Positions 45,330 through 61,453 of a stretch of DNA of 64,000 bases are shown piece after piece. The DNA lies in IMG/VR virus record IMGVR_UViG_3300036879_000022, positions 20,383 through 84,382 of that record; one strand, 5' to 3'. Position numbers and translations under genes: made by a program. The stretch is from a virus. The first letter of the stretch is position 1; every line of letters begins with the position of its first letter. Below the pieces are notes generated by a model. It was not told where the DNA came from and searched no databases. It was given only the letters and a program-made list of their open reading frames with translations.

Positions 45330-45578
45330 ATGGCCCGCCTCAAAGCCAAGACCCGCAACAAGCTCCCCGCCTCGAAGTTCGGCCTGCCCGGTGCCAAGGG
45401 CAAAGGCAAAGCCAAGGGCAAATACCCGATGCCCGACAAGGCCCATGCGGAGGACGCCGAGGGCCGGGCGACCCAGATGGTCGCGAAGGGCAAGCTGTCT
45501 CCCGAGCAGGCCTCGAAGATCAAGCACAAAGCTGAAGCGGTCCTCGGCAAGCACGACTGCAAGTATCACAACTGTTGA
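45330..45578 (+). CDS. DUF6582-like small basic protein
   Basis: RNKLPASKFGLP..KYPMPDKAHA..A..RA.Q pattern. Confidence 0.7.
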   Translation: MARLKAKTRNKLPASKFGLPGAKGKGKAKGKYPMPDKAHAEDAEGRATQMVAKGKLSPEQASKIKHKAEAVLGKHDCKYHNC

Positions 45579-45590
45579 TCGGAACGCGCC

Positions 45591-46085
45591 ATGGCAAAAG
45601 ACGCCCTCGGACACGGTAGCGAAGGACGCGGCGCGCATGCGGGCGCGGTCGCGCGTGTTGGCTTGCAGAACCCGAACCACCCGATATACAACACGGCGCA
45701 GAAGATGCGCGGCTACAATGGCCCGATCTCGCCGCTCACTGCCGACTACAGCACTGGCGGCAGGATGCTGCGGGATCGCACGAGCGGCATGACGAAGGAT
45801 GAGCACATGGCTGCGGGCGATCAACACGCCCAACAGTCGGGAGCACTTCGCGCGGCCCACGGTGGTGCTGTTGATACGGCGATGCGTGGCCTTCAGGGGC
45901 GCGACCCCGGCCCGCTGATCTCCGGCATCGTCTCGGACAAGTTCTCGGCCAGCGACAAGGGCAAGCTGCGGGACTTGGCTGTCGGCTCCGGCAAACACAC
46001 GAGCGCAGCGTTCGCGCACTACGCCGCCGCTGGAATGCGGATCGGCACCGCACGCACGCGGTTTCACTCAGTAAGGGGTACGTGA
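45591..46085 (+). CDS. KDALGHGS-leader protein 1
   Basis: MAKDALGHGSEG. Confidence 0.85.
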   Translation: MAKDALGHGSEGRGAHAGAVARVGLQNPNHPIYNTAQKMRGYNGPISPLTADYSTGGRMLRDRTSGMTKDEHMAAGDQHAQQSGALRAAHGGAVDTAMRGLQGRDPGPLISGIVSDKFSASDKGKLRDLAVGSGKHTSAAFAHYAAAGMRIGTARTRFHSVRGT

Positions 46086-46086
46086 C

Positions 46087-46458
46087 ATGAAGGACGCACT
46101 CGGACACGGATCGAACGATCGCGGCGGCGCAGGCCTCCACTCGGCTGGCGTGCAAGCGACGCCCCAGCTTCAGCGCCGGCACTTCGAAGCCATCGCAGCC
46201 GATCTGAAGGCGCAGGCTCCAAAGTCGTGGGGCGACAACAGCTCCAAGGCGAACTCGGACGCGAACGGCGCACACATGGCCAAAGTCAATGATGTCGCGG
46301 ACAAGCTCGCGATGACCAACCCGGGCTTCCGCCGAGATTTCTTCGTCAAGGCGGCGACGCCGGGCGGCGCGTACAATAACAAATCGCGCGAGCGATCGGC
46401 GACGAAACCGGGCTTCGCGTCGAAAGTGAGCAGGGCGAAGAAATTCGCAGGGATGTGA
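46087..46458 (+). CDS. KDALGHGS-leader protein 2
   Basis: MKDALGHGSND. Confidence 0.85.
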   Translation: MKDALGHGSNDRGGAGLHSAGVQATPQLQRRHFEAIAADLKAQAPKSWGDNSSKANSDANGAHMAKVNDVADKLAMTNPGFRRDFFVKAATPGGAYNNKSRERSATKPGFASKVSRAKKFAGM

Positions 46459-46461
46459 GCC

Positions 46462-46782
46462 ATGAAGGACGCACTCGGACACGGAAGTAACGGCGTCGGC
46501 GCGCAGCTTCGGCAGCGGATCGATGCGGATCGGCATATGTTCGGCGGACCCCGTCCGACGCTCCTGCGCGACAACACGTCGAACGCGCAGGCCGCGCGAT
46601 CTCTCATGGGCAGCTTGAAGTCCACCATGGTCCCCGTGCACGACAGCATGGCCGGCCGCGCATCGAACCCGACCTCGCAACGCGGGCCGACTGATCTGGG
46701 CAACCGGATCAAGTCCGCTGTAGGGCGCGGATCGAACTCGGAAGATCGCGCGGCGTTCGCCGCATGGAACGGACTGAAATGA
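46462..46782 (+). CDS. KDALGHGS-leader protein 3 with PVHDSM motif
   Basis: MKDALGHGSNG; AARSLMGSLKSTMVPVHDSM. Confidence 0.85.
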   Translation: MKDALGHGSNGVGAQLRQRIDADRHMFGGPRPTLLRDNTSNAQAARSLMGSLKSTMVPVHDSMAGRASNPTSQRGPTDLGNRIKSAVGRGSNSEDRAAFAAWNGLK

Positions 46783-46961
46783 AACGGCACAAGCGGGTCA
46801 CGAACAAAGACGCGGCGAGAGAGCTTTCGAGCGGCTACGGCCCGGCCCCGGTTCACCCCGCAATGGTTTCCATGGCGACGGTCTACGCGGCGGACAAGGA
46901 CCCGGCTGCAAACGCAACGGATGCATCGGATGACACGGACGACCAAGGCGGAAGTGACTGA
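46779..46961 (+). CDS. Array protein with PVH motif only
   Basis: DAARELSSGYGPAPVHPAM. Confidence 0.7.
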   Translation: MKRHKRVTNKDAARELSSGYGPAPVHPAMVSMATVYAADKDPAANATDASDDTDDQGGSD

Positions 46962-47112
46962 TCAGGACGTGAAGGTCCATCTCGCGCTCGGCGGCGGCAA
47001 ATCTCACGAGGCGCCGATCCATCCTGCGATGATCGGCAAAGGGCAGAACAAACTCGAAGTCGGCTCAACTCTGGGCTATGGCATCGGATCAGCGATAGGA
47101 GCGGGCACATGA
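46954..47112 (+). CDS. Array protein with PIH motif only
   Basis: GTG start; LALGGGKSHEAPIHPAM. Confidence 0.65.
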   Translation: MTDQDVKVHLALGGGKSHEAPIHPAMIGKGQNKLEVGSTLGYGIGSAIGAGT

Positions 47113-47582
47113 AAGACGCACTCGGACACGGAAGCAACGGCGGCTGGGGCCAGCATCCCGCCACCGGAAAGCTGAAGACCGCTTCGAAGTATCAGTCGTT
47201 CAACGGACGCATGGACGCCGTCGTCCGGACCGAGCGTATGCCAGCCGGACATCTCTGGCAGCATGGAAATCAGTATGGCTACGCCAACAGCGTGGCCGAC
47301 GCCAAGGCGACCGTCGAGAGCCGCGTTGCCGACGAAGACCGATACAAGACGCACGAGCCGGTCACCACGTCACAGTTCGACGGACCGCGCGAGCGGTCGG
47401 GGCTGGGCAACGCGACGCACAACGAGAACGGTCACGCATGGGGATCGCCCGAGGCGCTGAAAGACTTCAAGGACAAATACAACCGGGGCCGTGCCGAGGG
47501 CAACGCGAAGAACCGGGCAGAAGGCAAAGCGTTCCGCAGTGCCAAGGGCGAGATCAACCGTCTCCGCAAGCAGGGGAAGTGA
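47109..47582 (+). CDS. KDALGHGS-leader protein 4
   Basis: MKDALGHGSNG; SQFDGPRERSGLG. Confidence 0.85.
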   Translation: MKDALGHGSNGGWGQHPATGKLKTASKYQSFNGRMDAVVRTERMPAGHLWQHGNQYGYANSVADAKATVESRVADEDRYKTHEPVTTSQFDGPRERSGLGNATHNENGHAWGSPEALKDFKDKYNRGRAEGNAKNRAEGKAFRSAKGEINRLRKQGK

Positions 47583-47583
47583 C

Positions 47584-48009
47584 ATGGCGAAAGACGCAAA
47601 AGGCCACGGGTCCAACAGCCACGACTATAGCGGCGTCAAGACCTATCCAGCTATCACAGGCTTCGAAGGTCTCCGCAAGTCGCTCAATCTGGACGCTCTT
47701 CAAGCGGGCGGTCAGCCGGTCTCTGGCAACGCCAACGCAGCTCACGAGCTTTCGAGCGGCGGTCCGAAGTCGGTAGCGTCTCCGGTCCATGACAGCATGG
47801 TCGGCGCGAACGTGTCGCAGTTCGACGGACCGCGCGAGCGGTCGGGGCTGGGCGCGCACGACCAAGCGGTCAAGGATTTCAAAGAGGGTCGGATGACGCA
47901 CGGCGACATCCCGCCTCGGACCCCGTCCGAGCGAAACGTCAAGGCTCTCAATGAGAGCACGGGCTACCGCATTCGCAACGGCACCCTTCGCGGCAAACCC
48001 GGGAAATAA
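47584..48009 (+). CDS. KDAKGHGS-leader protein 5 with PVHDSM motif
   Basis: MAKDAKGHGSN; AAHELSSGGPKSVASPVHDSM; SQFDGPRERSGLG. Confidence 0.85.
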   Translation: MAKDAKGHGSNSHDYSGVKTYPAITGFEGLRKSLNLDALQAGGQPVSGNANAAHELSSGGPKSVASPVHDSMVGANVSQFDGPRERSGLGAHDQAVKDFKEGRMTHGDIPPRTPSERNVKALNESTGYRIRNGTLRGKPGK

Positions 48010-48022
48010 CGGAGCAAGTGAC

Positions 48023-48514
48023 ATGAAAGACGCAAAAGGTCACGGCAGCAATGAGCGCGGCGGCACCAAGCCGAACGCAAAGGGCATGCGGCTCATCAAG
48101 ACCCATGTGCTCGGGCCGCACTCAGCGAAGGTCTACAACAATCCCGAGTGGGGCGAGAAGGTCGTGCAGACGTTCCGCAACGGCGTCTATCAGTCGAAGA
48201 ACGACTAGCACACCGACGATCTCGCGGACGCGCATGCGACCGCGCAATCGCAGTTGAAGCGCTGGGACGATCAAGATGGCGGCGGTGGCATGATGGGGGC
48301 CATGAAGGCCAAGCTTTCCGACGATATCGCCGCCGGCCGCATGCTGAGCAGCGGCGGCCCGAAGTCGGCGGCGGTTCCGATCCACGACAGCATGCAATCC
48401 GCGTCTCGCGCGTTCTCGGACAAGAATAACGAAAAGTGGGGCTCGTATGCTAACGTCGGGAACGCAAAGGCGAATGACGCCGTGTTCGGTTCCGGACGGC
48501 ACAAGCTCACGTAG
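48023..48514 (+). pseudogene. KDAKGHGS-leader protein 6 interrupted by an in-frame TAG (48206-48208)
   Basis: MKDAKGHGSN..SKND*HTDD.. continues in the same frame to LSSGGPKSAAVPIHDSM. Confidence 0.75.
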
Positions 48515-48526
48515 GGGCAGCACGAG

Positions 48527-48781
48527 ATGAAAAACGTTCGCGGTACATCGGGGACGAACCGGCTCGCTGACGAGGGGGCGCGCGGCTTTGTGACGGCTCC
48601 CGGAGTGCGCGGCTTCGCCACGTCCACACAGAACACCGACGCGGCCAACGAGCTGGCCAGCGGCCCGAAGTCGCGCATGGTACCGGTTCACGACAGCATG
48701 AGCGGCTACAACGGCGTGCCGGTCCCGAGCGATAACATTCAGGACATGGCGCGGCAGCGCGGATATCAGGCGGCATCATAA
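48527..48781 (+). CDS. Array protein with PVHDSM motif
   Basis: DAANELASGPKSRMVPVHDSM. Confidence 0.8.
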   Translation: MKNVRGTSGTNRLADEGARGFVTAPGVRGFATSTQNTDAANELASGPKSRMVPVHDSMSGYNGVPVPSDNIQDMARQRGYQAAS

Positions 48782-49002
48782 TGGCACCAATGCAACGGAT
48801 TTCCAAGCCGACCCACTCGGTCGGGGTCACGATCGCCGTCCCGCATACGCGGTTCGCGCCGACGCCGAATATGTCGCCGCTGGAGATCGCGTTCCGGAAG
48901 GGACAAGAGGCTAAGCGCCTCGGCCGTCCGGCGGAGAGCCCGCACACGGACAATGAAGTGGGCGAGCTTGCAAAAGAATGGGAACGGGGATATGGGTCAT
49001 GA
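48781..49002 (+). CDS. Hypothetical protein
   Basis: AFRKGQEA..SPH..EWERGY; coupled to neighbours. Confidence 0.65.
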   Translation: MAPMQRISKPTHSVGVTIAVPHTRFAPTPNMSPLEIAFRKGQEAKRLGRPAESPHTDNEVGELAKEWERGYGS

Positions 49003-49193
49003 ACATGATTTGGGTAACAGCGCCGAACGGGGTCAGGTTCGAGATCGACCCCGAGAAGATCAGCGTCCTTGAGCCGGCTCAGCCGGGCATGTACGCGCCG
49101 GGAGCGAAGGCGGTTTTTCGCGTCGATGGCGAGATGCATGCAGTCAAAGAAACCGTCGCTCAAATCGACACCATGCGTGGGGCGGGAAAATGA
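48999..49193 (+). CDS. FlbD-like small protein
   Basis: IWVTAPNG..IDPEKI..VKETVAQI resembles the FlbD family pattern. Confidence 0.55.
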   Translation: MNMIWVTAPNGVRFEIDPEKISVLEPAQPGMYAPGAKAVFRVDGEMHAVKETVAQIDTMRGAGK

Positions 49194-49405
49194 AGGACGC
49201 TCTGGGGCACGGGAGCGTGAGCAATGCGGACGCGGCGAATGCGCTTGCGAGCGGCGCGAAGTCGGCGATCGTTCCAGTCCATGCTAGTATGAGCGAGGAC
49301 ACTGCACTCGAAATATCGCGGCTCGAACGCCGCGCGTATGAGAACGTTAGACGGAAAGCAGCTTCGCAACAGTTGGGCGAAGCGTGGAAGGGGCTAGGTC
49401 AATGA
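49190..49405 (+). CDS. KDALGHGS-leader protein 7 (leader + PVH motif + cargo)
   Basis: MKDALGHGSVSNADAANALASGAKSAIVPVHASM, then a homolog of 41330-41500. Confidence 0.85.
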   Translation: MKDALGHGSVSNADAANALASGAKSAIVPVHASMSEDTALEISRLERRAYENVRRKAASQQLGEAWKGLGQ

Positions 49406-49656
49406 AGGACGCTCTGGGACACGGCAGCAACCCGCAAGGCTTGATGGTCGCGCACCAAACGGGAGTGCGTAAGGCGATCGGCTTCAAGGTCGAGAAGCAT
49501 CTCGCGTTCTCCGGCAGAACGGCCGCCGGCCAGCGCAACCTCGCGACCGGCAACGTCTGGGGCAAGGTCGCTGGCGGCAAGCGGCGCGCGGTCGCGGAGA
49601 AGATCGCGATGGGCGCGCGAATTGACAACCCGAACTCAAGGATCAGGATCAGATGA
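49402..49656 (+). CDS. KDALGHGS-leader protein 8
   Basis: MKDALGHGSNP. Confidence 0.85.
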   Translation: MKDALGHGSNPQGLMVAHQTGVRKAIGFKVEKHLAFSGRTAAGQRNLATGNVWGKVAGGKRRAVAEKIAMGARIDNPNSRIRIR

Positions 49657-50108
49657 AAGACGCACTCGGACACGGAAGCAACGGCCTGCACGCGGGCGGC
49701 GTCAACAAGATCGGCAATCTCCCGGTCCACCCGAACGAGCTGCGCACGATCCAGAAGAACCCATGGGGCGCGAGCGTGAAGCCGCAGACCGGTGTCTCGC
49801 CGACGACCGGGTACATGGTTTCGATACAGGGCCGCACTCAGAGCCCGACCTCGGCGGCGCTCGCCGGTCCGCAGGGTGCGAGCATCATTCGCGACTACGC
49901 GCGCAACAACTCCGATCTGTTGCAGAAGCCTGACATGCACATCGGGAGCCGGGCCGACGAAACCGGTCGCACGCATCTCGACGTGTCGCAGAACATCCCT
50001 GATCGCGCGACTGCTGTCCAAGAGGGGCGTCGTCGCAATCAACAGGGTATCTGGGATGTTGCCCGCAAGAAGTTCATCGGCACGGGCGGCACGGGAGACG
50101 CGGCATGA
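49653..50108 (+). CDS. KDALGHGS-leader protein 9
   Basis: MKDALGHGSNG. Confidence 0.85.
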   Translation: MKDALGHGSNGLHAGGVNKIGNLPVHPNELRTIQKNPWGASVKPQTGVSPTTGYMVSIQGRTQSPTSAALAGPQGASIIRDYARNNSDLLQKPDMHIGSRADETGRTHLDVSQNIPDRATAVQEGRRRNQQGIWDVARKKFIGTGGTGDAA

Positions 50109-50338
50109 TCAGTGCAACGAAGAGCCACGTGAAGTGGGATCGCGGCAATCGGAGTGTGACCGATGACGAAGCTGCTGACGTTCTTGCAAATGGCCATCCG
50201 AAGAGTGGTCCGCCGAGTTTTCCTGAGCCCGCTAAAGTTCTGCCGGGCGCGCCGGGCGCTGGCGCGGCTCCGGGCGCGAACGGCCCGCCTACGACAGGCG
50301 CGTCGGTAGGTCCGGGCGGGCCATTGGGTTCGATCTAA
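50105..50338 (+). CDS. Array protein with degenerate second motif
   Basis: VTDDEAADVLANGHPKS. Confidence 0.7.
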   Translation: MISATKSHVKWDRGNRSVTDDEAADVLANGHPKSGPPSFPEPAKVLPGAPGAGAAPGANGPPTTGASVGPGGPLGSI

Positions 50339-50374: not shown

Positions 50375-50410
50375 TGCGAAGAAATTCCAACTATCGCAAG
50401 GATTATGCAC

Positions 50411-50779
50411 ATGGCACTTCGTGGCTCAGGCGTTGTAGCAAAGACCATCGATCCCCCGATGCAGGATCGCATCTCCAACAGCCCCGTCGATCCGCGCGCT
50501 GGCGCCGCCAAGCGGACCCAGACCAAGTTTCCGGTCAAGCCGGGCATGACCGATATGGTCAAGGGCTCCGTGTCATCGTTCGCCGGCCCGAAGAACCCGG
50601 GCGTCGGCCCGGATGCCTCCAGCTCCAATCCGCTTGACCCGTCGCCGACCGACAAGATTTTGCGTCGGCAGCCGCAGGAGATCAAGTCCTCGTGGGGCAT
50701 GGTGGACGCCAACGGTCAGTCGGTCAATGGCAACCTCGGCAAGGCCATCCTCGACGAAGCCGGCCGCCTCGGCCGCTAA
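50411..50779 (+). CDS. Hypothetical low-complexity protein
   Basis: ORF directly downstream of the promoter. Confidence 0.7.
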   Translation: MALRGSGVVAKTIDPPMQDRISNSPVDPRAGAAKRTQTKFPVKPGMTDMVKGSVSSFAGPKNPGVGPDASSSNPLDPSPTDKILRRQPQEIKSSWGMVDANGQSVNGNLGKAILDEAGRLGR

Positions 50780-50935
50780 CCCATGCCAACCCCCGCATGC
50801 TCGTGGCAAACCTTCTGCGGCTTCTTTCTCGCCGCATTCGGGGCCGCGACAGGTTGGGGGATGGGCCTCTTCGTTGTGGCCCAAGTCACGCGAGCCATCG
50901 TGCGGCTGTTCGGCCTAACCTGAAAAGAGACGACC

Positions 50936-51277: not shown

Positions 51278-51589
51278 GTGTTGAAACTCGCATCGCTGTC
51301 CCTCGCTGCGCTTCTCTCCGTCGCTTCCCCCGTCCTCGCCAAGCCCCCGATCGCTGCGCCGCCCACGGCGAAGTGCATCGCACCGACCAAGTTTCCAGAC
51401 GCCATCCGCGTCGAAGGCGCCGCTCTCGTCAAGCTCCGAGAGATCGCTCGCGGGCTCCCGGATCAAGTCGATCTCGTGCTTCTGCTCAAGACCGCTCCCG
51501 TCGCCGTCGCCTTCGTCAACGGCTGCGCGGTCGGCTTCGGGCAGCTCGCTCCCCTCGGGCTGAAACCCGCCGATGATGGAGCGATCTGA
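51278..51589 (+). CDS. Secreted hypothetical protein
   Basis: Signal peptide, two Cys, GGAG RBS. Confidence 0.65.
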   Translation: MLKLASLSLAALLSVASPVLAKPPIAAPPTAKCIAPTKFPDAIRVEGAALVKLREIARGLPDQVDLVLLLKTAPVAVAFVNGCAVGFGQLAPLGLKPADDGAI

Positions 51590-52006: not shown

Positions 52007-52121
52007 TACAGAACCTCGGATGTAGCTGAGCTGCACCCGACGTTTCGTATCAGAATTACGCGAGCGCGCATGTGCGCCTCCCATCGGCTGGGCCGATGCA
52101 CGACTATTGGAGGATATCCGC

Positions 52122-52946
52122 ATGAGCGGCATTGATGACACCGATCTCGCTGATCTTCTCGGCCCCGATCCACTCGGTGCCGAAGCCGAAGAAATTCTAG
52201 TTGATGTGACCCCGCCGAAATCGCGTCCCATGGGCGCAGCGAGCCGAGGCGTCCTAGAACGATCGCGCAGCTACCCCGTCAACGCTGCCGCCCGAGCAAG
52301 GCTCCCTGACCGCCTCAGCCGTCTGCTCAAGAACATCTCTGAAATCCCGATCGCAACGGACGCCGCGCGCCGCGCCGGCATTAGCCTGTCCCAGCTCAAG
52401 TATATGCTGCAAAAATCCAAGGAGGGTCGCTCCGGGGACGGGTATGACGTGGCCCTTCCGGAAGGCGAAGATAACGGCACCCCCGATAACACCGAACGGT
52501 TTCACGTCGTGTGGGAAGATGCGATGAGTGAAGGCCTCGGCAAAGCAGAGACGGCCGCGTGGGCTCTCGGGGTCGGCTTCAACGAAATCCAAGCTCACAA
52601 GGGTCGTGTCCAATACCGAATTGACCCGGAGAAGTACGATCTGTTCGTTCTGCTCGGCGACCCCATTGACGAGCGCAACCCGAGCCTATGGCTTCGCGAT
52701 GAAGTTGGGGCTCCAGTCCCCGAGACAATCTTCAAGCAGGACCCGGATATGCTCCGGTGGCTGCTCGAAAACCGCAAGCCGAAGGAATATGGCAAGCGAG
52801 CTGCTCTCGATCTGAATGTTACGGGCGGTGTTCTCGTGGTCGGTATGAAGGCGGCTACGTCGGAAGAGCTAAACGAAATCGAAACCGAATATCGCAAGGT
52901 CGGTCGTCCCGCCGTCACGTTCGAAGAGAGCGACGGGGACGTGTAA
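52122..52946 (+). CDS. terS: Probable terminase small subunit
   Basis: AARRAGIS HTH-like segment, DMLRWLLENRKPKEYG; coupled to terL. Confidence 0.7.
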   Translation: MSGIDDTDLADLLGPDPLGAEAEEILVDVTPPKSRPMGAASRGVLERSRSYPVNAAARARLPDRLSRLLKNISEIPIATDAARRAGISLSQLKYMLQKSKEGRSGDGYDVALPEGEDNGTPDNTERFHVVWEDAMSEGLGKAETAAWALGVGFNEIQAHKGRVQYRIDPEKYDLFVLLGDPIDERNPSLWLRDEVGAPVPETIFKQDPDMLRWLLENRKPKEYGKRAALDLNVTGGVLVVGMKAATSEELNEIETEYRKVGRPAVTFEESDGDV

Positions 52947-54609: not shown

Positions 54610-56301
54610 ATGGCACTTCCCGACAAGCACCCCGAGTACGTAGAGAGGCTGGGCGAATGGCTCCAGCTTTCGGACACCTATCAGGGCGAGCGCGCCGTCA
54701 AGTCGAAGCGGCTTGACTACCTGCCCGCGACCGAGGGAATGGTGCAGGACGGGATGACCACGCCCAGCTCCCCGGGCTGGCGCGACTACGAAGCGTACTT
54801 GATGCGCGCCTACTTCCACGACGTTGTCAAGGAAGCTGTCAAAGCCATGGTTGGCATCATGCACAACAAGCCCGCCGTGATCACGCTGCCCCCGCGCCTC
54901 GCCGGCATGATCGACCGGGCGACGATCCAAGGCGAAGGGCTCCAGATGTTGCTCCGCCGGATCAACGTCTCGCAACTCCTGTACGGCCGCTGCGGTCTTC
55001 TCGCGGACGCGCCGCAGGGCGTCGATATCGACAAGGCCACTCCCTACCTGTCCTTCTACGAGCCGATGCGGATCATCAACTGGGACGCCGGGCGCCTCAA
55101 TGAGGGCCGCAACGAACTCGACCTCGTCGTGCTCGACGAAAGCGGCTTCCGCCGTGAGGGCTTCACGTGGAAGACCGAACGCAAGTATCGCGTGCTGACG
55201 CGCGGCGGCCCGGAGAGCCTTGAGAGCGGCTGGGAACGACCGCCGGAGGGCTCGCCGTATTGCGTGGCCGTGAAGGTCAACGACAGCTCCATGCCCGTCA
55301 TGGAGGACTTCATTCAGCCGTCGATCGGTGGGCGCACGCTCCCGGCGGTTCCGTTCGTCTTCATCGGCGCCAACGATCTCGTACCCGAGCCCGAAGTGTC
55401 CCCGCTTCTCGGCCTGTCGAACCTCGCGCTCGCAATCTATCGAGCCGAGGCCGACTACAGGCAAACGCTGTTCACGCAGGGACAGGCCACGCTCGTCATC
55501 ATCAACGGCAACGTTGACGATGCGGCTCCCGACAAACTGCGCACCGGCTACAAAGGCGTTATCGATCTGCGCATGGGCGGCGACGCGAAGTATATCGGCG
55601 TGCCCGCCGCCGGGCTCGGCGAAATGCGTCAGTCGCTCAAGAGTGATATCGATGCCGCCGCTCTGGCGGGCATCGCGTTCTTGGACGTAGGCAACGCGCG
55701 CGGCGAGAGCGGCGAAGCTCTGCGCATCCGCGTCGCGGCGCGCACGACCACGATTTCATCCGTCGCTCAGTGCGCCGGCAAAGGGCTTGAGCAAGCACTC
55801 CGGTATTGTGCTGCTTGGGTTGGAGAAGACCCGAACGAAGTCTCGGTCAAGCCGACCACCGACTTCGCCGATCAGACTGTCGCTGGCGCCGCGCTGCTCG
55901 CGTTCATGCAGGCCAAGCAGCTTGGATTGCCCTTGTCGCTCCGTTCGATGCATCGCATGATGCAGATGAACGACATGACGGAGATGGATTTTGCGCAAGA
56001 GAACGCACAAATCGAAGAGGAAGCCGCTTCCATGCTGGGCTCTATGGTGGGTTGGGGCCAGTCGGCCAGCGTCACCGATGATACTTTCTTGGATGACAGC
56101 GTTGATCCGGTTCCCGGTCCGCCGTCAGAAGGCGGCACAACTCCGCCCTCTGCGACCGTTCCGCCGCTTGACCCCGCCCCGCCCATCCCGCCAAATTCGA
56201 ATGTGCCGATCGTCCCGACCGCTCGCGCAAAGGGCCACACCCGGGGATCGCCGGTCCCACTGAAGCGTAAGGTCGGCAAGAAGGGCGCGTCCGCTAAATG
56301 A
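54610..56301 (+). CDS. Portal protein (DUF4055-type)
   Basis: HPEY, YLP, YLMRA, IINW, PFVFIG, ESGEALRIR; follows terL. Confidence 0.9.
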   Translation: MALPDKHPEYVERLGEWLQLSDTYQGERAVKSKRLDYLPATEGMVQDGMTTPSSPGWRDYEAYLMRAYFHDVVKEAVKAMVGIMHNKPAVITLPPRLAGMIDRATIQGEGLQMLLRRINVSQLLYGRCGLLADAPQGVDIDKATPYLSFYEPMRIINWDAGRLNEGRNELDLVVLDESGFRREGFTWKTERKYRVLTRGGPESLESGWERPPEGSPYCVAVKVNDSSMPVMEDFIQPSIGGRTLPAVPFVFIGANDLVPEPEVSPLLGLSNLALAIYRAEADYRQTLFTQGQATLVIINGNVDDAAPDKLRTGYKGVIDLRMGGDAKYIGVPAAGLGEMRQSLKSDIDAAALAGIAFLDVGNARGESGEALRIRVAARTTTISSVAQCAGKGLEQALRYCAAWVGEDPNEVSVKPTTDFADQTVAGAALLAFMQAKQLGLPLSLRSMHRMMQMNDMTEMDFAQENAQIEEEAASMLGSMVGWGQSASVTDDTFLDDSVDPVPGPPSEGGTTPPSATVPPLDPAPPIPPNSNVPIVPTARAKGHTRGSPVPLKRKVGKKGASAK

Positions 56302-58712
56302 CCTTCGACCCAAACGAAGAGCGGGACCCGCATGGGCGGTGGACGCGTGGCGGCAACGACACGGGCGAGATCGCGAAAGTGATCGACCCGCGTGTTGTTG
56401 ACGTGAGCGGCGACGACTGGAACAGGAAGACGGCGGAGCGGCTCGAAAAAGAGTACGCCGATGTACGGCCGGAGATTGACAAGATCGCGACCGAGGGCGT
56501 CGAAAAGCACGCGGGCGTTGCGCTCGGAGCCGAGCCCGAGGAAGAGGACGAAGACGCGCCTGTCGTTCCAGAGACATGGAGCGACTTGTCGGGCTCGCAA
56601 CAGGAAGAGGCTGAGCAGAGCTATATCGATAACCACATCGATCAGGAAAAAGAATACGCTGTCTCCAATTGGCAGGAGAACGGCGAAGCCCTTGTGGAGG
56701 CCAAGCATGCTCTCGCTAACGATGACGACTTCAAGAGTGAGTTCCTGAGCGAGTTTCTCGCTGACCGCGAAGCGAACGATGAGGCACGCATCCCTTTCAG
56801 TGCCGGCGATCTCGCGGGCGCGATCCATATTGAGGCGGGTGACGAACACAACGACGATCCGGCGATCACATTCGACGACAAATATCTGGACAAGCCGGAC
56901 AATTTCGCCCACGAAGGGCAGATGAGCTTCCCCGGGATTGAGCCGCAAAACCCGGCGGATTTCCTCACGCCTAAAATGCGCGAAGAGATCACAAATGCGC
57001 TGCTCGAAAAGTTTGAGGAAGAGGCCAAGTCCAAAGCGGAAAATATCGATCCGCCCGACTACCTCAATGAAGAGGCTCAGACCAACGTGCAGGAAGCATG
57101 GGGGAGTATGAGCGATGAGGACCAATTTGAATACGCAAAGGACCACGTTGACAGCCTCAAAGAGCAACTGGAAGAGCCTGCCAAAGTCGCGCGCACCCCG
57201 ACGATTGACCTTGCATGGCCTGAGAAATTCGATCCGCTTAACCTGACCTCGGGTCGCGACTACATGCGGACGCAGGCACTCGCGAAGTACATCGCCGACA
57301 AGCGCGGAGCGCAGTTGATCACTCAGCGTACCGATGCGGGCCTCATCGGGCGCAAGGGGAGGCTTGACACTCCGGCGGTTATCTCAGCTAGGGCCGTGCT
57401 CAACGATCCGAACTCCAATCCGGGGAACGTGGAGAGCGCCAAGAAAATTATCGCCGACTTCGAAAACGTGTCGGGTGGCTGGAAGCCCCGCGACAAGTTC
57501 CTCGGGTCGGATGCTGACTACGAAAAGCTCTATGGGACCGGCGGCGTCGGCGCGAAGAAAGATGCGGCGTGGACCGAGCGCATGATGAAAGAGCTTCAAC
57601 AGGTGGATTTCAAGCTTTGGTCCGGATGGAAGGGCAGCTCGACGAACGCGGAAGGCAGGCTGTTGCAGGTAGCGGCATCCGACGAACTCGGCGGCCGTAT
57701 CCGCGACGCGCGCCCGCCCAAATGGAAAGACCCGGCGAACGATCCTCCGGAAGTGGTGCTCGCGAAATCCGTCGTGGGCAATCCGAACTCTACGGCCGAG
57801 GACACGGGAAACCATAACCTCGTCATCGCCGCGTACAAGGATGGGGCGCCGCCGGCTATCTTGAAGGCCATGTCGGACGCCGCGCAGGGCCACAAGACGC
57901 CTGAGACGGACAAGATGATCATGGACTATCTCTCCAGTTCGACCGGGGCCAAAGAACGCGCCAAGGCCCCGAACTTGGACGCGGAGAGCTTTAACGGCGG
58001 CTACATCCGCCTGCCCAAAGTGGTCATCGAAAAGAACGGCGCGGCCTCGACGACGGTCAGCCGAGACGTGGCCAATGGTTGGAATGGCACGTCGAACAAC
58101 GCGCCCGAGGGGATCAACAAGAAAGAGAGCATCGAATACGCGAACCACGCCTACGCGGCGATCGGCGGCTACGAAGGCGTCAAGGCGGCGCTCCGTGCGA
58201 AGTGGGAGACGACGCAATACCTGCTCGACAAGGCCGACATCCCGGTTGTGCAGGCGTATCGCGGCATCACGTATGCGCACAAGCTCCCGGGCGCTGCGAA
58301 CGTGGGCGACTTCAACCCGCCCGCGTCCGGGATTGTTAAAGAGAGTGGCAGTCAACAAAGCGTCAATCTCGCGGAGATGCCGGTCGGGGCGAGCGTTAAG
58401 ATTTCATCGGGAAAGACCATCACTAAAGTCAGTGCCGAAGACTTGCCATCTGGATACGCGAAGGGCACGGGCAAATGGACTTATGCGGAGCCCAAGGAAA
58501 CACAGTCACGCATCGTGTTGCGCGCGGAAGTACCGCGCACCGCTGTCGTGTCTGTGCCCGCCTATGGCGTCAACGTCAAGAGCGAGCAGGAAGTGGTCGT
58601 CGTCGGCACCGGCTGGAAAGGCTGGGACGCTTGGTCCGGCCGCGCGCCCAGTTTCGAGGAAGTCCCGATGCACGCGCCGGCTCCGGCAGCCCCGAAGAAC
58701 CCGCAATCATGA
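56298..58712 (+). CDS. Putative virion-associated effector with ADP-ribosyltransferase-like C-terminal domain
   Basis: N-terminal FDPNEERDPHGRWT, acidic region, ART-like motifs STT, YRG and EQEVVV. Confidence 0.7.
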   Translation: MTFDPNEERDPHGRWTRGGNDTGEIAKVIDPRVVDVSGDDWNRKTAERLEKEYADVRPEIDKIATEGVEKHAGVALGAEPEEEDEDAPVVPETWSDLSGSQQEEAEQSYIDNHIDQEKEYAVSNWQENGEALVEAKHALANDDDFKSEFLSEFLADREANDEARIPFSAGDLAGAIHIEAGDEHNDDPAITFDDKYLDKPDNFAHEGQMSFPGIEPQNPADFLTPKMREEITNALLEKFEEEAKSKAENIDPPDYLNEEAQTNVQEAWGSMSDEDQFEYAKDHVDSLKEQLEEPAKVARTPTIDLAWPEKFDPLNLTSGRDYMRTQALAKYIADKRGAQLITQRTDAGLIGRKGRLDTPAVISARAVLNDPNSNPGNVESAKKIIADFENVSGGWKPRDKFLGSDADYEKLYGTGGVGAKKDAAWTERMMKELQQVDFKLWSGWKGSSTNAEGRLLQVAASDELGGRIRDARPPKWKDPANDPPEVVLAKSVVGNPNSTAEDTGNHNLVIAAYKDGAPPAILKAMSDAAQGHKTPETDKMIMDYLSSSTGAKERAKAPNLDAESFNGGYIRLPKVVIEKNGAASTTVSRDVANGWNGTSNNAPEGINKKESIEYANHAYAAIGGYEGVKAALRAKWETTQYLLDKADIPVVQAYRGITYAHKLPGAANVGDFNPPASGIVKESGSQQSVNLAEMPVGASVKISSGKTITKVSAEDLPSGYAKGTGKWTYAEPKETQSRIVLRAEVPRTAVVSVPAYGVNVKSEQEVVVVGTGWKGWDAWSGRAPSFEEVPMHAPAPAAPKNPQS

Positions 58713-59146
58713 AAATCGATCTCAACAATCTCCCGGGCAAGCCCAGCCCCCTCGGCGACCCCCATTGGCTTTCGGGCTCGGGCAGGGTTGACCGCAAGGG
58801 TATCCATGAGCGCTACAAGGCGGCGCATCTCGCGGAGATCAAGGCGCGTCCGCGCAAGCCCGCGCGCCCGGAGACAACCGCCAAGCTTGAGGCCATGTCG
58901 GCGCGCGTCAAGAAGACCGAACAGGCGAAGCTGGTCAGGGTTTGGAATACCGCGATCGGGATCATTGACCGCACGGAGCCCCGGCTCCGCGACCTCATTG
59001 AGCGTGAGCTGATCGACGTGGCGGGCATCGATCATACGCGTGTCGGGGACGCGATGCAGGCGACCGAGGACCTCATGAAGCTGATCCGCCCCGTTCGAAC
59101 CAAGGCAATCAAGAAGGCCTTCCGATATCTGCGGGAGCATCTGTGA
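58709..59146 (+). CDS. Hypothetical protein, possibly a minor head protein fragment
   Basis: Coupled ORF; helical IIDRTEPRLRDLI segment. Confidence 0.6.
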   Translation: MKIDLNNLPGKPSPLGDPHWLSGSGRVDRKGIHERYKAAHLAEIKARPRKPARPETTAKLEAMSARVKKTEQAKLVRVWNTAIGIIDRTEPRLRDLIERELIDVAGIDHTRVGDAMQATEDLMKLIRPVRTKAIKKAFRYLREHL

Positions 59147-60168
59147 TGGCGTATGATCCGAACGAACAGCGCGACCCGAAAGGTCAGTGGTCGGCCAGCG
59201 CGGGCGGCTTCGGCGCCCATTCCGAAGGGCCGTACATGGCCGTGGAGAAACCGGAGAACGCAGAGAAGGCGAACACGGTCGCCAAGATCGCTGCTCAGGT
59301 CGCGAAGAAACTCGATTTTGACCCGACCGGGATCAACATCTCGGATGAGAGCAAGACCTTCGAGTTGAACGGAAAGACGATGCCCTACGCTGGATGGGCG
59401 ACAGTTCCACCGGAGCCAACGCTGACGACTAACCCGGATGGGTCGAAACAGGTCATCGGAGGCGGGATCGGCACCGTGACGTTGTTCACGCCGCACGTCG
59501 GGAATGACCCGGCCGGGATCGCTGGCGTCACGGCGCACGAAATCGCGCATCAAAAGTTCAACGCCCTTCTGAGCGACAAGGCGGTCGATCAGCTCAAGAT
59601 GGCGCAAGACCCGGACTACGGCAAAGACACGCAATGGATCACATACGACAGTACCAACCCTGAGCATGTACGGATGAGCGTGAACGGGGCTATGGTTTCG
59701 TCACCGCAACCGGACGGGACCCAGAAAATCCGAGAGCCGGGCTTCATGAAGCCGGACGGCACGCTCAATGAGCCCTACGCGAGTAAGTATCCCGCGTATC
59801 AGCTCTACACGAAAGCGATGATGCCGATGGTCGCGGACTTCGCAAAGTCGGACGGCGTGTCCGACTACAGCAAAGAGTATTGGCAGGGCGTGCAGACGCC
59901 GAAAGTCGTAGAGTATGTGAAGGACGCCAACACGGGCGAGAAGGGCACGTATACGACGGCCTCCATCCCGCACCTGAGCGCGTTCCACGAAACCCTCGCG
60001 GAGATCGCGCGGCTCAAGTACGCGGGCCAGCCGGTCTACCATAGGAAACTCGGCGAGGTCGAAGGCAAACCGGTTTACTTTGCGCAGGGCACGAAAGGCG
60101 TCAAGCCGGCGTGGAGCACCCTCTACAAGGCGATCAATGAGAATTGGAAACGGCGGAACGGCAAATGA
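59146..60168 (+). CDS. Putative virion-associated zincin metallopeptidase
   Basis: N-terminal YDPNEQRDPKGQWS; AHEIAH, GVSDYS, HETLAE. Confidence 0.75.
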   Translation: MAYDPNEQRDPKGQWSASAGGFGAHSEGPYMAVEKPENAEKANTVAKIAAQVAKKLDFDPTGINISDESKTFELNGKTMPYAGWATVPPEPTLTTNPDGSKQVIGGGIGTVTLFTPHVGNDPAGIAGVTAHEIAHQKFNALLSDKAVDQLKMAQDPDYGKDTQWITYDSTNPEHVRMSVNGAMVSSPQPDGTQKIREPGFMKPDGTLNEPYASKYPAYQLYTKAMMPMVADFAKSDGVSDYSKEYWQGVQTPKVVEYVKDANTGEKGTYTTASIPHLSAFHETLAEIARLKYAGQPVYHRKLGEVEGKPVYFAQGTKGVKPAWSTLYKAINENWKRRNGK

Positions 60169-60604: not shown

Positions 60605-61453
60605 ATGTTGAAGACAATCTACGACACGGCCGAGGAAATTCCGGAGGGCTATGCCGCTCTCTACACGGAGCGGAACGGCAAATGGGAGTTGACCGGCGTC
60701 ACGGGTGTCAAGACCCAAGCCGACATCGATCGCGTACAGGCCGCGCTCGTGAAGGAGCGCAACGACCACAAGGCGGTCAAGACCGCGTTCGCGCCGTTCG
60801 AAGGGCTCGATCCCGAGGTCATCCACGCGCAGGCGACCGAGCTGGAGGAAACCAAGGCCCAGCTCGCCGCCGTCAAGAAGGATGGCACGATCGACGAGAC
60901 CAAGCTGGAGCCGATCATCACGGCCCGGCTCAAGCAGATCACCGCTCCGATGGATCGTGATCGGCTCGCTCTTGAGCGCCGGCTCGAAGCGCAGCAAAAG
61001 CTCGTGGCCGAAAAGGATGGCGAGGTCTTGAGCCTGAAGACCGCCATCACCACGGGCAACGTCGAGCGCGCCATCCGTGACGCAGCCGGCGAAGCCAAGA
61101 TCGTTTCGACCGCGATCTCGGATGCTGTCTTGCAGGGCAGCCGCGTGTTCGAGGCGACCGAGGATGGCCGCGTCATCACCAAGGATGTCCCCGGGGTTAC
61201 GCCGGGCTTGAACCCGCGTGAATGGTTCAAGGACATGCAGGAGAAGTCCCCGCATTGGTGGCCGGCGTCAGTCGGCGGCGGATCGAAGGGTGGCTCCGGC
61301 CCGGCCGGACGGGCGAATAACCCGTGGTCGCGCGAAGCTTGGAACCTGACCAAGCAGGGCGTCTACCTCAAGGAGTACGGCGAGGACAAGGCCAAGGTTC
61401 TGGCGGAAAGCGTCGGCTCGCACATCGGCGCGACCAAGCCGGCAGCGGCCTGA
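60605..61453 (+). CDS. Capsid scaffolding protein
   Basis: EIPEGYAALYTERNGKW, ALVKERNDHK coiled coil, PHWWP..GGG, NPW..WNLTKQG. Confidence 0.85.
   Translation: MLKTIYDTAEEIPEGYAALYTERNGKWELTGVTGVKTQADIDRVQAALVKERNDHKAVKTAFAPFEGLDPEVIHAQATELEETKAQLAAVKKDGTIDETKLEPIITARLKQITAPMDRDRLALERRLEAQQKLVAEKDGEVLSLKTAITTGNVERAIRDAAGEAKIVSTAISDAVLQGSRVFEATEDGRVITKDVPGVTPGLNPREWFKDMQEKSPHWWPASVGGGSKGGSGPAGRANNPWSREAWNLTKQGVYLKEYGEDKAKVLAESVGSHIGATKPAAA

What the first reader, a model, noticed from the sequence alone, without database searches (positions are those of the whole stretch)
45591..50338. Array of small genes sharing an M(A)KDA(L/K)GHGS leader and shuffled motifs: candidate tag-and-package system
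Seen: nine ORFs (45591, 46087, 46462, 47109, 47584, 48023, 49190, 49402, 49653) start with this leader and then diverge. A second motif, roughly AAxxLxSGxKSxxxP(V/I)HxSM, occurs in about eight ORFs with or without the leader. A third, (A/L)HxxGV-like, follows the leader in four. A 36-nt identical block (QFDGPRERSGLG) is shared by two neighbours. Genes are tightly coupled and lie just upstream of the terminase. Established: T4 internal proteins share a short N-terminal capsid-targeting sequence ahead of variable anti-defence cargo. Inference: a leader-addressed repertoire of virion-packaged or co-assembling small proteins, with near-identical leader DNA acting as a recombination handle. KDxxGH also echoes the RDxxG(R/Q)W leaders downstream of the portal.
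Basis: partly seen in the sequence, partly recalled or inferred. Interest (0 to 1): 0.88.

Follow-up and report, generated by a model that had tools for sequence, protein, structure and literature searches.

The report
Shared leader peptide on phage cargo genes
An uncultured peat-soil phage carries a row of nine small, otherwise unrelated genes that all begin with the same nine-residue peptide, and the same peptide marks the joints between modules of giant multi-enzyme phage proteins, so it is probably a handling tag for proteins carried in the virus head, though this is untested.

Summary
Nine + strand genes between 45591 and 50108 start with M(A)KDA(L/K)GHGS. That is 9 pattern matches against none in 100 shuffles.

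The peptide is under selection, not the DNA. All synonymous codons occur, including six Ser codons, across 212 gene starts.

The array is a hypervariable cassette of 1-11 genes. It sits at a fixed place ahead of the terminase and portal genes in 58 IMG/VR contigs of related 94-127 kb phages of soil Alphaproteobacteria.

Cargos fall into 97 families. They include ART-PolyVal and exotoxin-type ADP-ribosyltransferases. One folded domain is shared with the Syn5 internal virion protein gp45.

The new finding is that the same motif occurs internally and repeatedly at module junctions of 244-1590 aa multi-module (polyvalent-like) phage proteins. In two homologous proteins it aligns with the RDxxGRW motif.

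Best reading (about 0.5): a protease-independent address or handling tag for virion-borne cargo, with the array acting as an unbundled polyvalent protein. Packaging itself is not shown. No prohead protease was found, and the complex predictor was unavailable.

The scan has reported analogous leader tags on other phage DNA.

The parts
45330..45578 (+). Conserved upstream flank gene (82 aa from the ATG at 45330; basic)
   Evidence: phrog_16160, E 2.5e-18. tblastn finds it directly upstream of the array in relatives; all 20 loci that hold both flank genes have the leaders between them. Start taken from orthologues.
45591..46085 (+). Leader gene 1 (164 aa; MAKDALGHGS, then AHAGAV)
   Evidence: Its cargo family has 3 members. 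No Pfam or PHROG hit.
46087..46458 (+). Leader gene 2 (123 aa; leader, LHSAGV, then a conserved RRHFE...TNPGFRRDFF core)
   Evidence: 14-member family, alignment A6. A 53-aa insertion allele begins right after the leader in L071 and in two peat DNA runs.
46462..46782 (+). Leader gene 3 (106 aa; leader plus motif 2)
46764..47112 (+). Two overlapping leaderless small ORFs (65 and 63 aa), each with a motif-2-like PxHPAM site
   Evidence: The same sites occur in L071 and L050. Coding status is not shown.
47109..47582 (+). Leader gene 4 (157 aa; holds the first copy of the shared 36-nt block)
   Evidence: Its C-terminal module recurs on other cargos.
47584..48009 (+). Leader gene 5 (141 aa; MAKDAKGHGS, motif 2, second copy of the 36-nt block)
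   Evidence: The ESM Atlas model has mean pLDDT 0.37, so it is probably disordered.
48023..48514 (+). Leader gene 6: one 163-aa gene with motif 2, cut in this record by TAG at 48206-48208
   Evidence: L071 reads TAT. T is read at 48208 in 3 of 3 covering runs.
48527..48781 (+). Leaderless ORF with motif 2 (84 aa)
48781..49193 (+). Two small leaderless ORFs inside the array (73 aa, RMF-like; 71 aa)
   Evidence: Pfam RMF E 2.4e-4 at 21.5 bits, below the 27.9 cut-off; FlbD E 0.017.
49190..49405 (+). Leader gene 7 (71 aa; leader directly followed by motif 2)
49402..49656 (+). Leader gene 8 (84 aa; leader, AHQTGV; net charge +12)
49653..50108 (+). Leader gene 9 (151 aa): the conserved last member of the array, with a disordered leader and a folded alpha/beta domain
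   Evidence: 22-sequence alignment A1. AF2 mean pLDDT 86.1, with residues 1-18 below 50. 21 BFVD matches at E<=1e-3, several inside 767-1102 aa phage proteins. tblastn to Syn5, P60 and S-CBP42 'internal virion protein', E down to 9e-7.
50105..50338 (+). Leaderless ORF with a degenerate motif 2 (77 aa)
50405..50779 (+). Conserved downstream flank gene (124 aa)
   Evidence: tblastn hits downstream of the array in relatives, 35-100% identity. No family hit.
47369..47408 (+). Shared block QFDGPRERSGLG; the second copy is at 47814-47853
   Evidence: 40 nt at 98%. A database protein, P0003, joins genes 4 and 5 exactly here; this may be an assembly artefact.
56298..58712 (+). Post-portal 804-aa protein that starts with the sister leader ..DPNEERDPHGRW
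   Evidence: The same leader starts post-portal proteins in 10 relatives' loci.
59143..60168 (+). Second protein with the sister leader (..DPNEQRDPKGQW), 341 aa

Best explanation
WHAT IS SHOWN. The nine genes are real members of a large, unnamed family of small, basic, Cys-free phage proteins. Each consists of an invariant, disordered N-terminal header (M/MA-KDAxGHGS, usually followed by [NDE]x[RH]GG and often AHxxG[VI]) and a freely exchangeable cargo. The cargo is either a disordered segment carrying short motifs or a small folded or enzymatic domain.

The genes form a hypervariable cassette array at a fixed place in a clade of 94-127 kb phages of soil and peat Alphaproteobacteria. The order is: conserved 82-aa gene, array, conserved 124-aa gene, small genes, terminase, portal, proteins with an RDxxGxW header, scaffold.

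The same header stands at the junctions between modules of multi-module (polyvalent-like) phage proteins. There it is interchangeable with the RDxxGRW header.

WHAT IS INFERRED. The array is an 'unbundled' polyvalent protein, with each module encoded as its own gene but keeping the module header. The header is an address or handling tag. Through it a conserved partner in the assembling head (scaffold, capsid interior or portal) takes the modules into the procapsid. They would then travel in the virion and enter the host with the DNA.

In this clade the tag would work without a prohead protease. The cargo set turns over by recombination at the header and at other shared short motifs.
For: THE HEADER IS A SELECTED PEPTIDE AT THE EXTREME N-TERMINUS.
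- 9 of 9 in the window.
- In 75 IMG/VR loci plus the window there are 222 unique proteins: 208 directly after M or MA, and the other 14 after M plus one residue or a V/L (GTG/TTG-type) start.
- All synonymous codons are used at every invariant residue, including 6 Ser codons.
- A purine-rich RBS-like tract lies upstream.

CARGO IS DIVERSE AND MOSAIC.
- 215 unique cargos fall into 97 families, 71 of them singletons.
- Modules recur at different positions.

SYNTENY IS FIXED WHILE COPY NUMBER VARIES FROM 1 TO 11.
- (7-11 copies in five 90-100% complete genomes; reversed-pattern control 0).

CARGO TYPES ARE THOSE OF VIRION-BORNE EFFECTORS.
- PF18760 ART-PolyVal scores above its gathering cut-off in 3 of 10 relatives' cargos tested and in P0073.
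- PF03496 ADP-ribosyl exotoxin in P0021.
- HEIGH zincin-like and ParB_N-like cargos, both below cut-off.
- The window's gene 9 domain matches Syn5 gp45, P60 and S-CBP42 'internal virion protein'. It also matches domains inside 767-1102 aa phage proteins in BFVD.

THE HEADER ALSO MARKS INTERNAL JUNCTIONS.
- A profile search of 1.84 billion representatives gives 473 hits at E<=1e-3.
- Of the best 150, 136 have a single N-terminal copy. Nine proteins of 244-1590 aa carry 2-4 internal copies, each after a hydrophobic-x-K-x context.
- One of these directly follows a Peptidase_S78_2 (XkdF) domain.
- One is encoded two genes upstream of a 1600-aa protein with MuF-type minor-head matches.

EQUIVALENCE WITH RDxxGRW.
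- In the BLASTP alignment of homologues P0099 and P0122, KDAKGHGS aligns with RDEHGRWR.
- RDxxGxW starts the post-portal proteins here and in 10 relatives' loci.

OTHER POINTS.
- Disordered leader: pLDDT below 50 for residues 1-18 in front of a confident fold.
- The proteins are basic (median pI 9.9) and Cys-free: 4 of 213 contain Cys.
- Precedent: T-even internal proteins are diverse defence proteins that share only a capsid targeting sequence (PMC3012670, passages of section 6 read).
Against: - No experiment or computation here shows packaging, binding or ejection.
- The complex predictor was unavailable, so no partner was tested.
- None of the window's own nine cargos has a Pfam family, and only weak PHROG matches appear. 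Only gene 9 has a link to a virion protein, at 30-35% identity.
- The array lies outside the portal-to-capsid block. It is flanked by genes of unknown function.
- No prohead protease and no full MuF domain was found in this record or four 90-100% complete relatives. The T4 mechanism (tag removed by gp21) therefore cannot simply be transferred.
- The internal junction position fits a processing site as well as a docking tag.
- The contexts of most long junction-bearing proteins are unknown.
- Contigs in metatranscriptome libraries cover parts of the array, but they do not prove transcription and say nothing about timing.
Confidence: 0.5

Rival explanations
1. The header is only a proteolytic processing signal. 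Multi-module proteins are cut at the junction to free the modules, and the stand-alone genes keep the motif as a relic or as a site for removal of a short propeptide. On this reading it carries no targeting role.
For: - The motif sits at module boundaries, 2-4 times per protein, after a conserved hydrophobic-x-K-x context.
- In P0008 the first copy directly follows a Peptidase_S78_2 domain.
- The M-A-KDA variant of stand-alone genes (37 of 222) mirrors the K-A-KDA junctions.
- Zincin-like HEIGH cargos exist in relatives' arrays.
Against: - A cleavage site at residue 1-2 of a stand-alone protein has nothing to release. Yet the header is invariant in 208 or more N-terminal cases under peptide-level selection.
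- No S78, S78_2, ClpP or S77 protease scored above cut-off in five genomes of the clade.
Confidence: 0.15
2. The proteins are cytoplasmic host-takeover or anti-defence proteins that are not packaged. The header would be a short linear motif that docks all of them on one host or phage hub, such as a chaperone, a protease adaptor, the polymerase or the ribosome.
For: - The proteins are small, basic and often disordered, and carry several short His-containing motifs: the header, AHxxG[VI] and motif 2.
- The array is flanked by genes of unknown function rather than known structural genes.
- An RMF-like ORF lies inside the array.
Against: - The header recurs inside proteins encoded next to MuF-type giant proteins and on ART-PolyVal domains.
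- It is interchangeable with the header of the post-portal proteins.
- The array lies on the same strand as the terminase and portal genes, and the consensus scan found only one weak + strand terminator-like site, after the array at 50801-50820.
Confidence: 0.2
3. This is an ordinary tandem paralogue family. The N-terminus would be kept by descent, gene conversion or translation-start constraints, and the leader DNA would mainly serve as a recombination handle.
For: - The genes are tandem and tightly coupled.
- Two leader pairs share 24 and 33 identical nt.
- An indel allele starts at the last base of a leader.
- The P0003 chimera joins at the 36-nt block.
- Assembly unitigs break at these repeats.
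Against: - Cargos are unrelated: 59 single-linkage components at E<=1e-5. They include different enzyme folds.
- Synonymous sites in the header are free.
- The same peptide works internally in long proteins, where translation-start effects cannot apply.
- P0003 may be an assembly artefact at a repeat longer than the assembler's word.
Confidence: 0.08

Closest known systems
T4 capsid targeting sequence (CTS) on internal proteins IPI-III and Alt
   Same: A short N-terminal peptide is the only thing shared by a diverse, fast-evolving set of small, basic, head-internal proteins, and it suffices to load them (PMC3012670, section 6 passages). Here too there is an invariant short N-terminal peptide, unrelated basic cargos, hypervariable gene content, and ADP-ribosyltransferases among the cargos.
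   Different: - The T4 tag is removed by the prohead protease gp21. No prohead protease family was found in this clade.
- The phage type differs: the portal is related to those of the RDJL, PaMx25 and Chi groups.
- The header here also occurs internally at module junctions.
- Sequence likeness to the T4 CTS was not tested.
- Packaging is unproven here.
Polyvalent proteins of phages and conjugative elements (Iyer et al. 2017, PMC5512222; passages read)
   Same: - The domain repertoire overlaps: ART-PolyVal PF18760, zincin-like and ParB-like domains.
- Both are associated with portal-terminase phages and MuF-type proteins.
- Injection with the DNA is predicted for polyvalent proteins.
- The header marks junctions in multi-module proteins of 244-1590 aa.
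   Different: - The window's proteins are single modules encoded as separate genes.
- The shared junction or header peptide was not found in that paper by my term search ('leader', 'N-terminal motif' and 'short motif' each occur 0 times). Its supplementary files were not seen.
MuF polymorphic toxins of temperate phages (Jamet et al. 2017, PMC5576092; search listing and abstract only)
   Same: A constant N-terminal head-associated part is joined to a variable C-terminal toxin or effector, encoded near the portal.
   Different: The constant part here is a 9-14 residue peptide, not a MuF domain. No MuF domain scored above cut-off in five genomes of the clade.
Internal virion (core/ejection) protein gp45 of cyanophage Syn5 and relatives
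   Same: The folded domain of window gene 9 matches residues about 414-517 of the 1415-aa gp45, and also P60 and S-CBP42 proteins annotated 'internal virion protein'.
   Different: Only one domain is shared, at 27-35% identity. gp45 belongs to a T7-like podovirus, and no header was seen there.

Membership tests
T4-type CTS-addressed internal proteins | A short N-terminal peptide shared by otherwise unrelated head-internal proteins | tested here: met
   9 of 9 window genes; 208 of 222 unique relatives directly after M or MA. Cargos fall into 97 families.
T4-type CTS-addressed internal proteins | Tag removed by a prohead protease (T4 gp21, Peptidase_S77) | tested here: not met
   PF03420, PF04586, PF14550 and PF00574 each score above cut-off in 0 of 5 records (the own record plus four 90-100% complete relatives). 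Cleavage itself cannot be tested here.
T4-type CTS-addressed internal proteins | Proteins present inside the virion | not testable with these tools
   No cultured member and no proteome exists. The only link is homology of one cargo to the Syn5 gp45 internal virion protein.
Polyvalent proteins (Iyer et al. 2017) | Two or more disparate domains in one polypeptide | tested here: not met
   The window's nine proteins are 61-164 aa single modules. The feature is met only by header-bearing relatives such as P0005, P0028, P0099 and P0122.
Polyvalent proteins (Iyer et al. 2017) | Characteristic domain repertoire (for example ART-PolyVal) | tested here: inconclusive
   PF18760 scores above cut-off in relatives' header proteins: L067, L030, L057 and P0073. 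None of the window's own nine has a Pfam hit.
MuF polymorphic toxins | N-terminal MuF (PF04233) domain | tested here: not met
   No Pfam hit in the nine proteins. PF04233 scores above cut-off in 0 of 5 genomes. One 15.4-bit fragment lies inside a header gene of G001.
RiPP precursor arrays (conserved leader, variable core) | Short Cys/Ser/Thr-rich cores with adjacent modifying or export enzymes | tested here: not met
   Cargos are 50-190 aa and Cys occurs in only 4 of 213. Some cargos fold into domains or are enzymes. No modifying enzyme was found among the neighbours.

The most novel reading that the evidence does not exclude
KDAxGHGS and RDxxGRW may be two dialects of one general, protease-independent 'module header' code, [KR]-D-x-x-G-[HRQ]-[GW]-[ST]. 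On this reading, many uncultured tailed phages use the code to load any protein module into the capsid interior and to eject it. The module may be encoded alone or strung together in giant polyvalent proteins. Phage effector arsenals could then be read directly from sequence, and foreign cargo could be addressed to such capsids by a 9-14 residue tag.
Probability: 0.3. Interest if true: 0.85.

Novelty: new variant of a known kind. Interest (0 to 1): 0.7.

Why it matters
If the header is a loading tag, three things follow.
- It gives a sequence-level handle for listing virion-delivered effectors in uncultured phages. These effectors could be anti-defence proteins, ADP-ribosyltransferases or peptidases.
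- It explains how giant polyvalent proteins and arrays of small genes are two packagings of the same arsenal.
- It offers a very short, protease-independent tag for putting foreign proteins into capsids.

It also makes a long-standing question testable: how scaffold-only phages choose their internal proteins.

Even if packaging fails, a nine-residue peptide kept invariant on at least 97 unrelated cargo families, and hit in 473 representatives of clusters at 50% identity, is an undescribed short linear motif with a conserved partner still to be found.

Tried and rejected
FAMILY SEARCHES ON THE WINDOW'S PROTEINS. Pfam and PHROG scans of the nine leader proteins plus ORF 48254 gave no usable family. 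The best results were ALN at E 0.078 and phrog_7884 at E 3.6e-4 on the cargo of ORF 48023.

SEARCHES AGAINST CULTURED PHAGES.
- blastn of the whole array found nothing.
- tblastn of the 71-aa gene 7 found nothing even at E 10.
- tblastn of P0122 found nothing.
- tblastn of P0008 matched only through its protease domain.

HOMOLOGUE SEARCHES.
- The word-indexed search with gene 5 gave only 4 hits among 25 candidates.
- The 'longer' search with alignment A1 gave 2 proteins. Both carry DUF7178, which is of unknown function.

FOLD OF GENE 9.
- Foldseek against the PDB gave no match at E<=1e-3.
- VIA-align wide gave a best Z of 3.9, with none at Z 5 or above.
- The profile search against PDB sequences gave a best E of 0.48.
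- These results do not show that the fold is new.

ESM ATLAS. Gene 5 gave no usable feature hit.

CONTEXT OF THE LONG JUNCTION-BEARING PROTEINS.
- The search for related loci in viral contigs found no relative of P0008 or P0122.
- Cluster look-up gave no informative names, only one 'hypothetical protein'.

PROMOTERS AND TERMINATORS. The scan was no better than shuffles.

LITERATURE.
- The search 'GHGS' plus 'phage' returned 173 papers. None of the 15 listed concerned the motif.
- Six spellings of RDxxGRW-type motifs returned 0 papers.
- These searches cover only the held library. Supplementary files were not opened.

GENOME-CONTIG SCAN. It gave 12 loci, about the number expected by chance on my own estimate. 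Only 7 carry true family members, all of them Alphaproteobacteria or Hyphomicrobiales MAGs.

CONSIDERED AND DROPPED.
- RiPP precursors: see Membership tests.
- Secretion signal: none of 213 proteins has a hydrophobic stretch.
- First-step-transfer genes at genome ends: the arrays lie mid-genome in the two genomes with terminal repeats.

READS AND CONTIGS.
- A joint 48673 to 49568 rests on one 117-nt contig with a 30-nt side, so I do not use it.
- Parts of the array without RNA-library contigs say nothing.
- P0003, the chimera at the 36-nt block, may be an assembly artefact and is not counted as proof of recombination.

Full report
1. WHAT IS THERE

The window is bases 20383-84382 of an 84,382-bp IMG/VR virus record, linear and about 80% complete. 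From about 30.8 kb to the window's end nearly all long ORFs are on the + strand.

The late part holds these genes:
- a 279-aa gene at 52107-52946;
- the large terminase, inside 52757-54535 (phrog_979);
- the portal at 54610-56301 (DUF4055, phrog_145 at E 1e-102);
- an 804-aa and a 341-aa protein;
- a scaffold at 60605-61453 (phrog_206);
- a collagen-like fibre gene.

The portal is 45-47% identical to portals of Roseobacter phages of the RDJL group, phiJL001, and Pseudomonas and Xanthomonas siphophages of the PaMx25/NP1 type.

Between 45591 and 50338 lie nine genes that begin M(A)KDA(L/K)GHGS, with about seven leaderless small ORFs among them. Gaps between neighbours range from -41 to +45 nt.

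- A six-frame search finds KDA.GHGS nine times. All nine are at N-termini, on one strand and inside the array.
- The degenerate DNA pattern gives 9 matches, against 0 in each of 100 shuffles.
- Motif 2 occurs in seven frames, plus a degenerate eighth copy. (A/L)HxxGV follows the leader in four genes.
- The QFDGPRERSGLG block is a 40-nt repeat at 98%.
- One correction: ORFs 48023 and 48254 are one gene, cut by TAG at 48206-48208. The near-identical contig L071 has TAT, and three of three runs that cover the site read T.

3. THE PEPTIDE IS SELECTED, NOT THE DNA

In 212 distinct gene starts from the window and related loci, every invariant residue uses all its synonymous codons:
- Lys: AAA 129, AAG 83.
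- Ala: four codons.
- Both Gly positions: four codons each.
- Ser: AGC 136, AGT 31, TCC 21, TCG 11, TCA 7, TCT 4.

A purine-rich tract lies 6-13 nt before the start codons. These are translated genes under purifying selection on a peptide.

4. THE FAMILY AND ITS ARRAY ARE WIDESPREAD IN ONE PHAGE CLADE

- An exact scan of IMG/VR with ATG plus the leader pattern returned 75 loci. By my count of the listing they come from 58 contigs, with up to 10 matches per locus.
- Six-frame search of these loci plus the window gives 266 hits and 222 unique proteins. Of these, 208 follow M or MA directly; the other 14 follow M plus one residue or a V/L start codon.
- Lengths run mostly from 60 to 205 aa, with a median of 127.
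- The extended consensus is MKDA[KL]GHGS[NDE]x[RH]GG.
- AHxxG[VI] follows within 45 residues in 60 of 161 non-redundant proteins.
- The proteins are Ala/Gly/Ser/Arg/Lys/Pro-rich. Only 4 of 213 contain Cys, and the median pI is 9.9.

tblastn with the window's proteins shows one gene order:
1. the homologue of 44871;
2. the homologue of 45270;
3. the array;
4. the homologue of 50405;
5. small genes;
6. the 279-aa gene;
7. the terminase;
8. the portal;
9. one or two variable proteins;
10. the scaffold.

Terminase identity to the window across these loci ranges from 49 to 100%.

All 20 loci that hold both flank genes have the leader genes between them. L039 and L065 carry one or two more just beyond the downstream flank.

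Five 90-100% complete genomes of 94-127 kb, two of them with direct terminal repeats, have 7-11 leader genes. All lie on one strand and mostly in one array. The reversed control pattern gave 0.

True members in GTDB genomes (7 of 12 loci) are all in Hyphomicrobiales or other Alphaproteobacteria MAGs. Some sit on contigs of 0.4-2 Mb, which suggests prophages.

The array DNA is held by peat and permafrost metagenome runs, 14 of them with at least half of its sampled words. Contigs from two metatranscriptome libraries match parts of it, which hints at transcription but does not prove it.

5. CARGO IS VARIABLE, MOSAIC AND PARTLY ENZYMATIC

- Cargos after residue 14 form 59 single-linkage components at E<=1e-5. 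When 60% coverage is required they form 97 families, 71 of them singletons.
- Array content differs between relatives. A few families recur in a loose order. The family of window gene 9 is usually the last gene.
- Short modules move between proteins. Examples are the C-terminal module of gene 4, the central module of gene 3, and an SYLDPNDPR piece that sits after the leader in some members of the gene-2 family and at the C-terminus in others.
- Motif 2 occurs at 61 unique sites in the loci, 40 of them in leader-bearing ORFs.
- Between the window and L071, gene 2 differs by a 53-aa insertion placed directly after the leader. Two peat DNA runs carry that allele, and the difference begins at 46112, the last base of the leader pattern.

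Among ten relatives' cargos that I chose because they looked enzyme-like:
- three match PF18760 ART-PolyVal above its gathering cut-off (34.1, 49.0 and 39.2 bits against 31.2);
- one matches ParB_N below cut-off;
- one has a HEIGH zincin motif.

Two further header proteins from the global search are an ADP-ribosyl exotoxin type (PF03496, 47.8 bits) and another ART-PolyVal.

Window gene 9 folds confidently. Mean pLDDT is 86.1 and residues 20-148 are mostly above 90. The header, residues 1-18, is below 50.

The gene 9 domain has no clear solved relative. It has 21 BFVD matches at E<=1e-3. Several are domains inside 767-1102 aa phage proteins, one named as a zeta-toxin-domain protein and one as XkdF-like.

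By tblastn the same domain matches the 'internal virion protein' of Syn5, P60 and S-CBP42, at E 9e-7 to 8e-3. In Syn5 the protein is gp45, 1415 aa.

Gene 5 is probably disordered: the Atlas model has mean pLDDT 0.37.

6. THE HEADER IS ALSO A MODULE JUNCTION

A profile of the first 40 residues (alignment A2: 117 sequences, all from the window or the IMG/VR loci) was run against 1.84 billion representatives. It found 473 proteins at E<=1e-3.

Of the best 150:
- 136 carry one strict motif within the first 3 residues;
- 3 carry it after an internal Met, which is probably a mis-called start;
- 2 lack the strict motif, one of them an unrelated repeat protein;
- 9 are proteins of 244-1590 aa with 2-4 internal copies.

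In these nine the motif always follows a short hydrophobic-x-K-x context and precedes a new module.

P0008 has a Peptidase_S78_2 (XkdF) domain at residues 56-174 (57.2 bits). The first copy of the motif follows directly at residue 181.

P0099 lies on a 197-kb metagenome contig. It sits two genes upstream of a 1600-aa protein with MuF-type minor-head matches. Two neighbouring smaller genes also carry internal copies of the motif.

7. EQUIVALENCE WITH THE SECOND LEADER

The two post-portal proteins of the window begin ..DPNE(E/Q)RDP(H/K)G(R/Q)W. The same header starts post-portal proteins with cargos of 45-796 aa in 10 relatives' loci.

In the BLASTP alignment of homologues P0099 and P0122 (E 4e-59), KDAKGHGS of one aligns with RDEHGRWR of the other, after the shared ..LAKAIV.. 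segment. The two headers therefore occupy the same structural slot.

8. NO PROTEASE AND NO FULL MuF

In the complete relative G005 the head module contains:
- the portal;
- a 329-aa protein;
- a 113-aa MuF-like fragment;
- the scaffold;
- a 154-aa gene;
- a fibre gene;
- a 147-aa virion protein;
- the major head protein (phrog_247);
- an adaptor.

No protease appears among the ten genes scanned.

Six-frame searches with PF14550, PF04586, PF00574, PF03420 and PF04233 scored nothing above cut-off in the window's record or in four 90-100% complete relatives.

9. READING

Shown:
- a selected, disordered header peptide on interchangeable cargos;
- a conserved, hypervariable array;
- the same header at junctions of multi-module proteins;
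- interchangeability with the header of the post-portal proteins;
- cargo types known from proteins that are predicted or annotated to travel in virions.

Inferred: the header addresses or handles modules as virion cargo. The closest precedent is the T4 capsid targeting sequence, the only feature shared by the diverse T-even internal proteins (PMC3012670). The closest architectural relatives are polyvalent proteins (PMC5512222). The differences are the absence of a prohead protease, the internal use of the tag, and the phage lineage.

Confidence:
- virion-cargo reading: about 0.5;
- cytoplasmic hub-binding motif: 0.2;
- pure processing site: 0.15;
- plain paralogy or a DNA-level handle: 0.08.

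10. PRIOR NOTES OF THE SCAN

Notes on this genome pointed to the RDxxGxW proteins (e1-6129127). I tested that only through the relatives' N-termini and the P0099/P0122 alignment.

Follow-up reports on other phage DNA describe analogous leader or junction tags. They include a glycine/histidine-rich one said to separate the domains of giant effector proteins (e1-5908166, e1-5908153). I could not see their sequences, so I cannot say whether it is the same motif.

Noticed in passing
window 48206-48208: An amber codon (TAG) cuts leader gene 6. L071 and three of three covering runs read TAT, so this record's allele is a minority variant or an assembly or sequencing error.
   Followed up: yes
window 48781-49002: A 73-aa ORF inside the array resembles ribosome modulation factor (Pfam RMF E 2.4e-4, 21.5 bits, below the 27.9 cut-off).
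   Followed up: partly
window 48978-49193: A 71-aa ORF with a weak FlbD-like N-terminus (E 0.017). It has no leader and is acidic, unlike its neighbours.
   Followed up: no
window 45330-45578: The conserved 82-aa basic gene directly upstream of nearly every array (phrog_16160). Its fixed position makes it a candidate partner or regulator of the array.
   Followed up: partly
window 51278-51589: A 103-aa ORF with a signal-peptide-like N-terminus lies between the array and the terminase genes. It is conserved in some relatives (43-98% identity by tblastn).
   Followed up: no
window 55990-56301: The portal has a roughly 100-residue C-terminal extension that does not align with cultured relatives (their matches end at residue 461). 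It is Pro-rich with a basic end that includes KGHTRGSPVP.
   Followed up: no
L071:2476-3003, L032, L062, L058 (alignment A6): A mobile SYLDPNDPR piece moves between the N- and C-terminal sides of the gene-2 family. It resembles the first half of the RDxxGxW header (..DPNE.RD..).
   Followed up: no
L007:3997-4410: In one relative a KDALGHGS-header gene (138 aa) sits immediately after the portal gene, where other relatives have RDxxGxW-header proteins.
   Followed up: partly
G001:C1:66527-66730 (minus strand): A weak MuF-like fragment (PF04233, 15.4 bits, below cut-off) lies inside a header gene of the array of a complete 127-kb relative.
   Followed up: no
window 47109-47141, 47379-47402, 47824-47847, 49656-49682: Contigs from public DNA runs break at the 33-nt leader shared by genes 4 and 9 and at the 36-nt block. 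Short-read assemblies of such arrays, including chimeras like P0003, should therefore be read with care.
   Followed up: partly
P0028 (1380 aa, from the representative search): This protein has four junctions spelled DAKDPLGHGSE, a Pro variant of the header. By eye it also has an R-S-E-type ADP-ribosyltransferase-like stretch; Pfam found no family.
   Followed up: no
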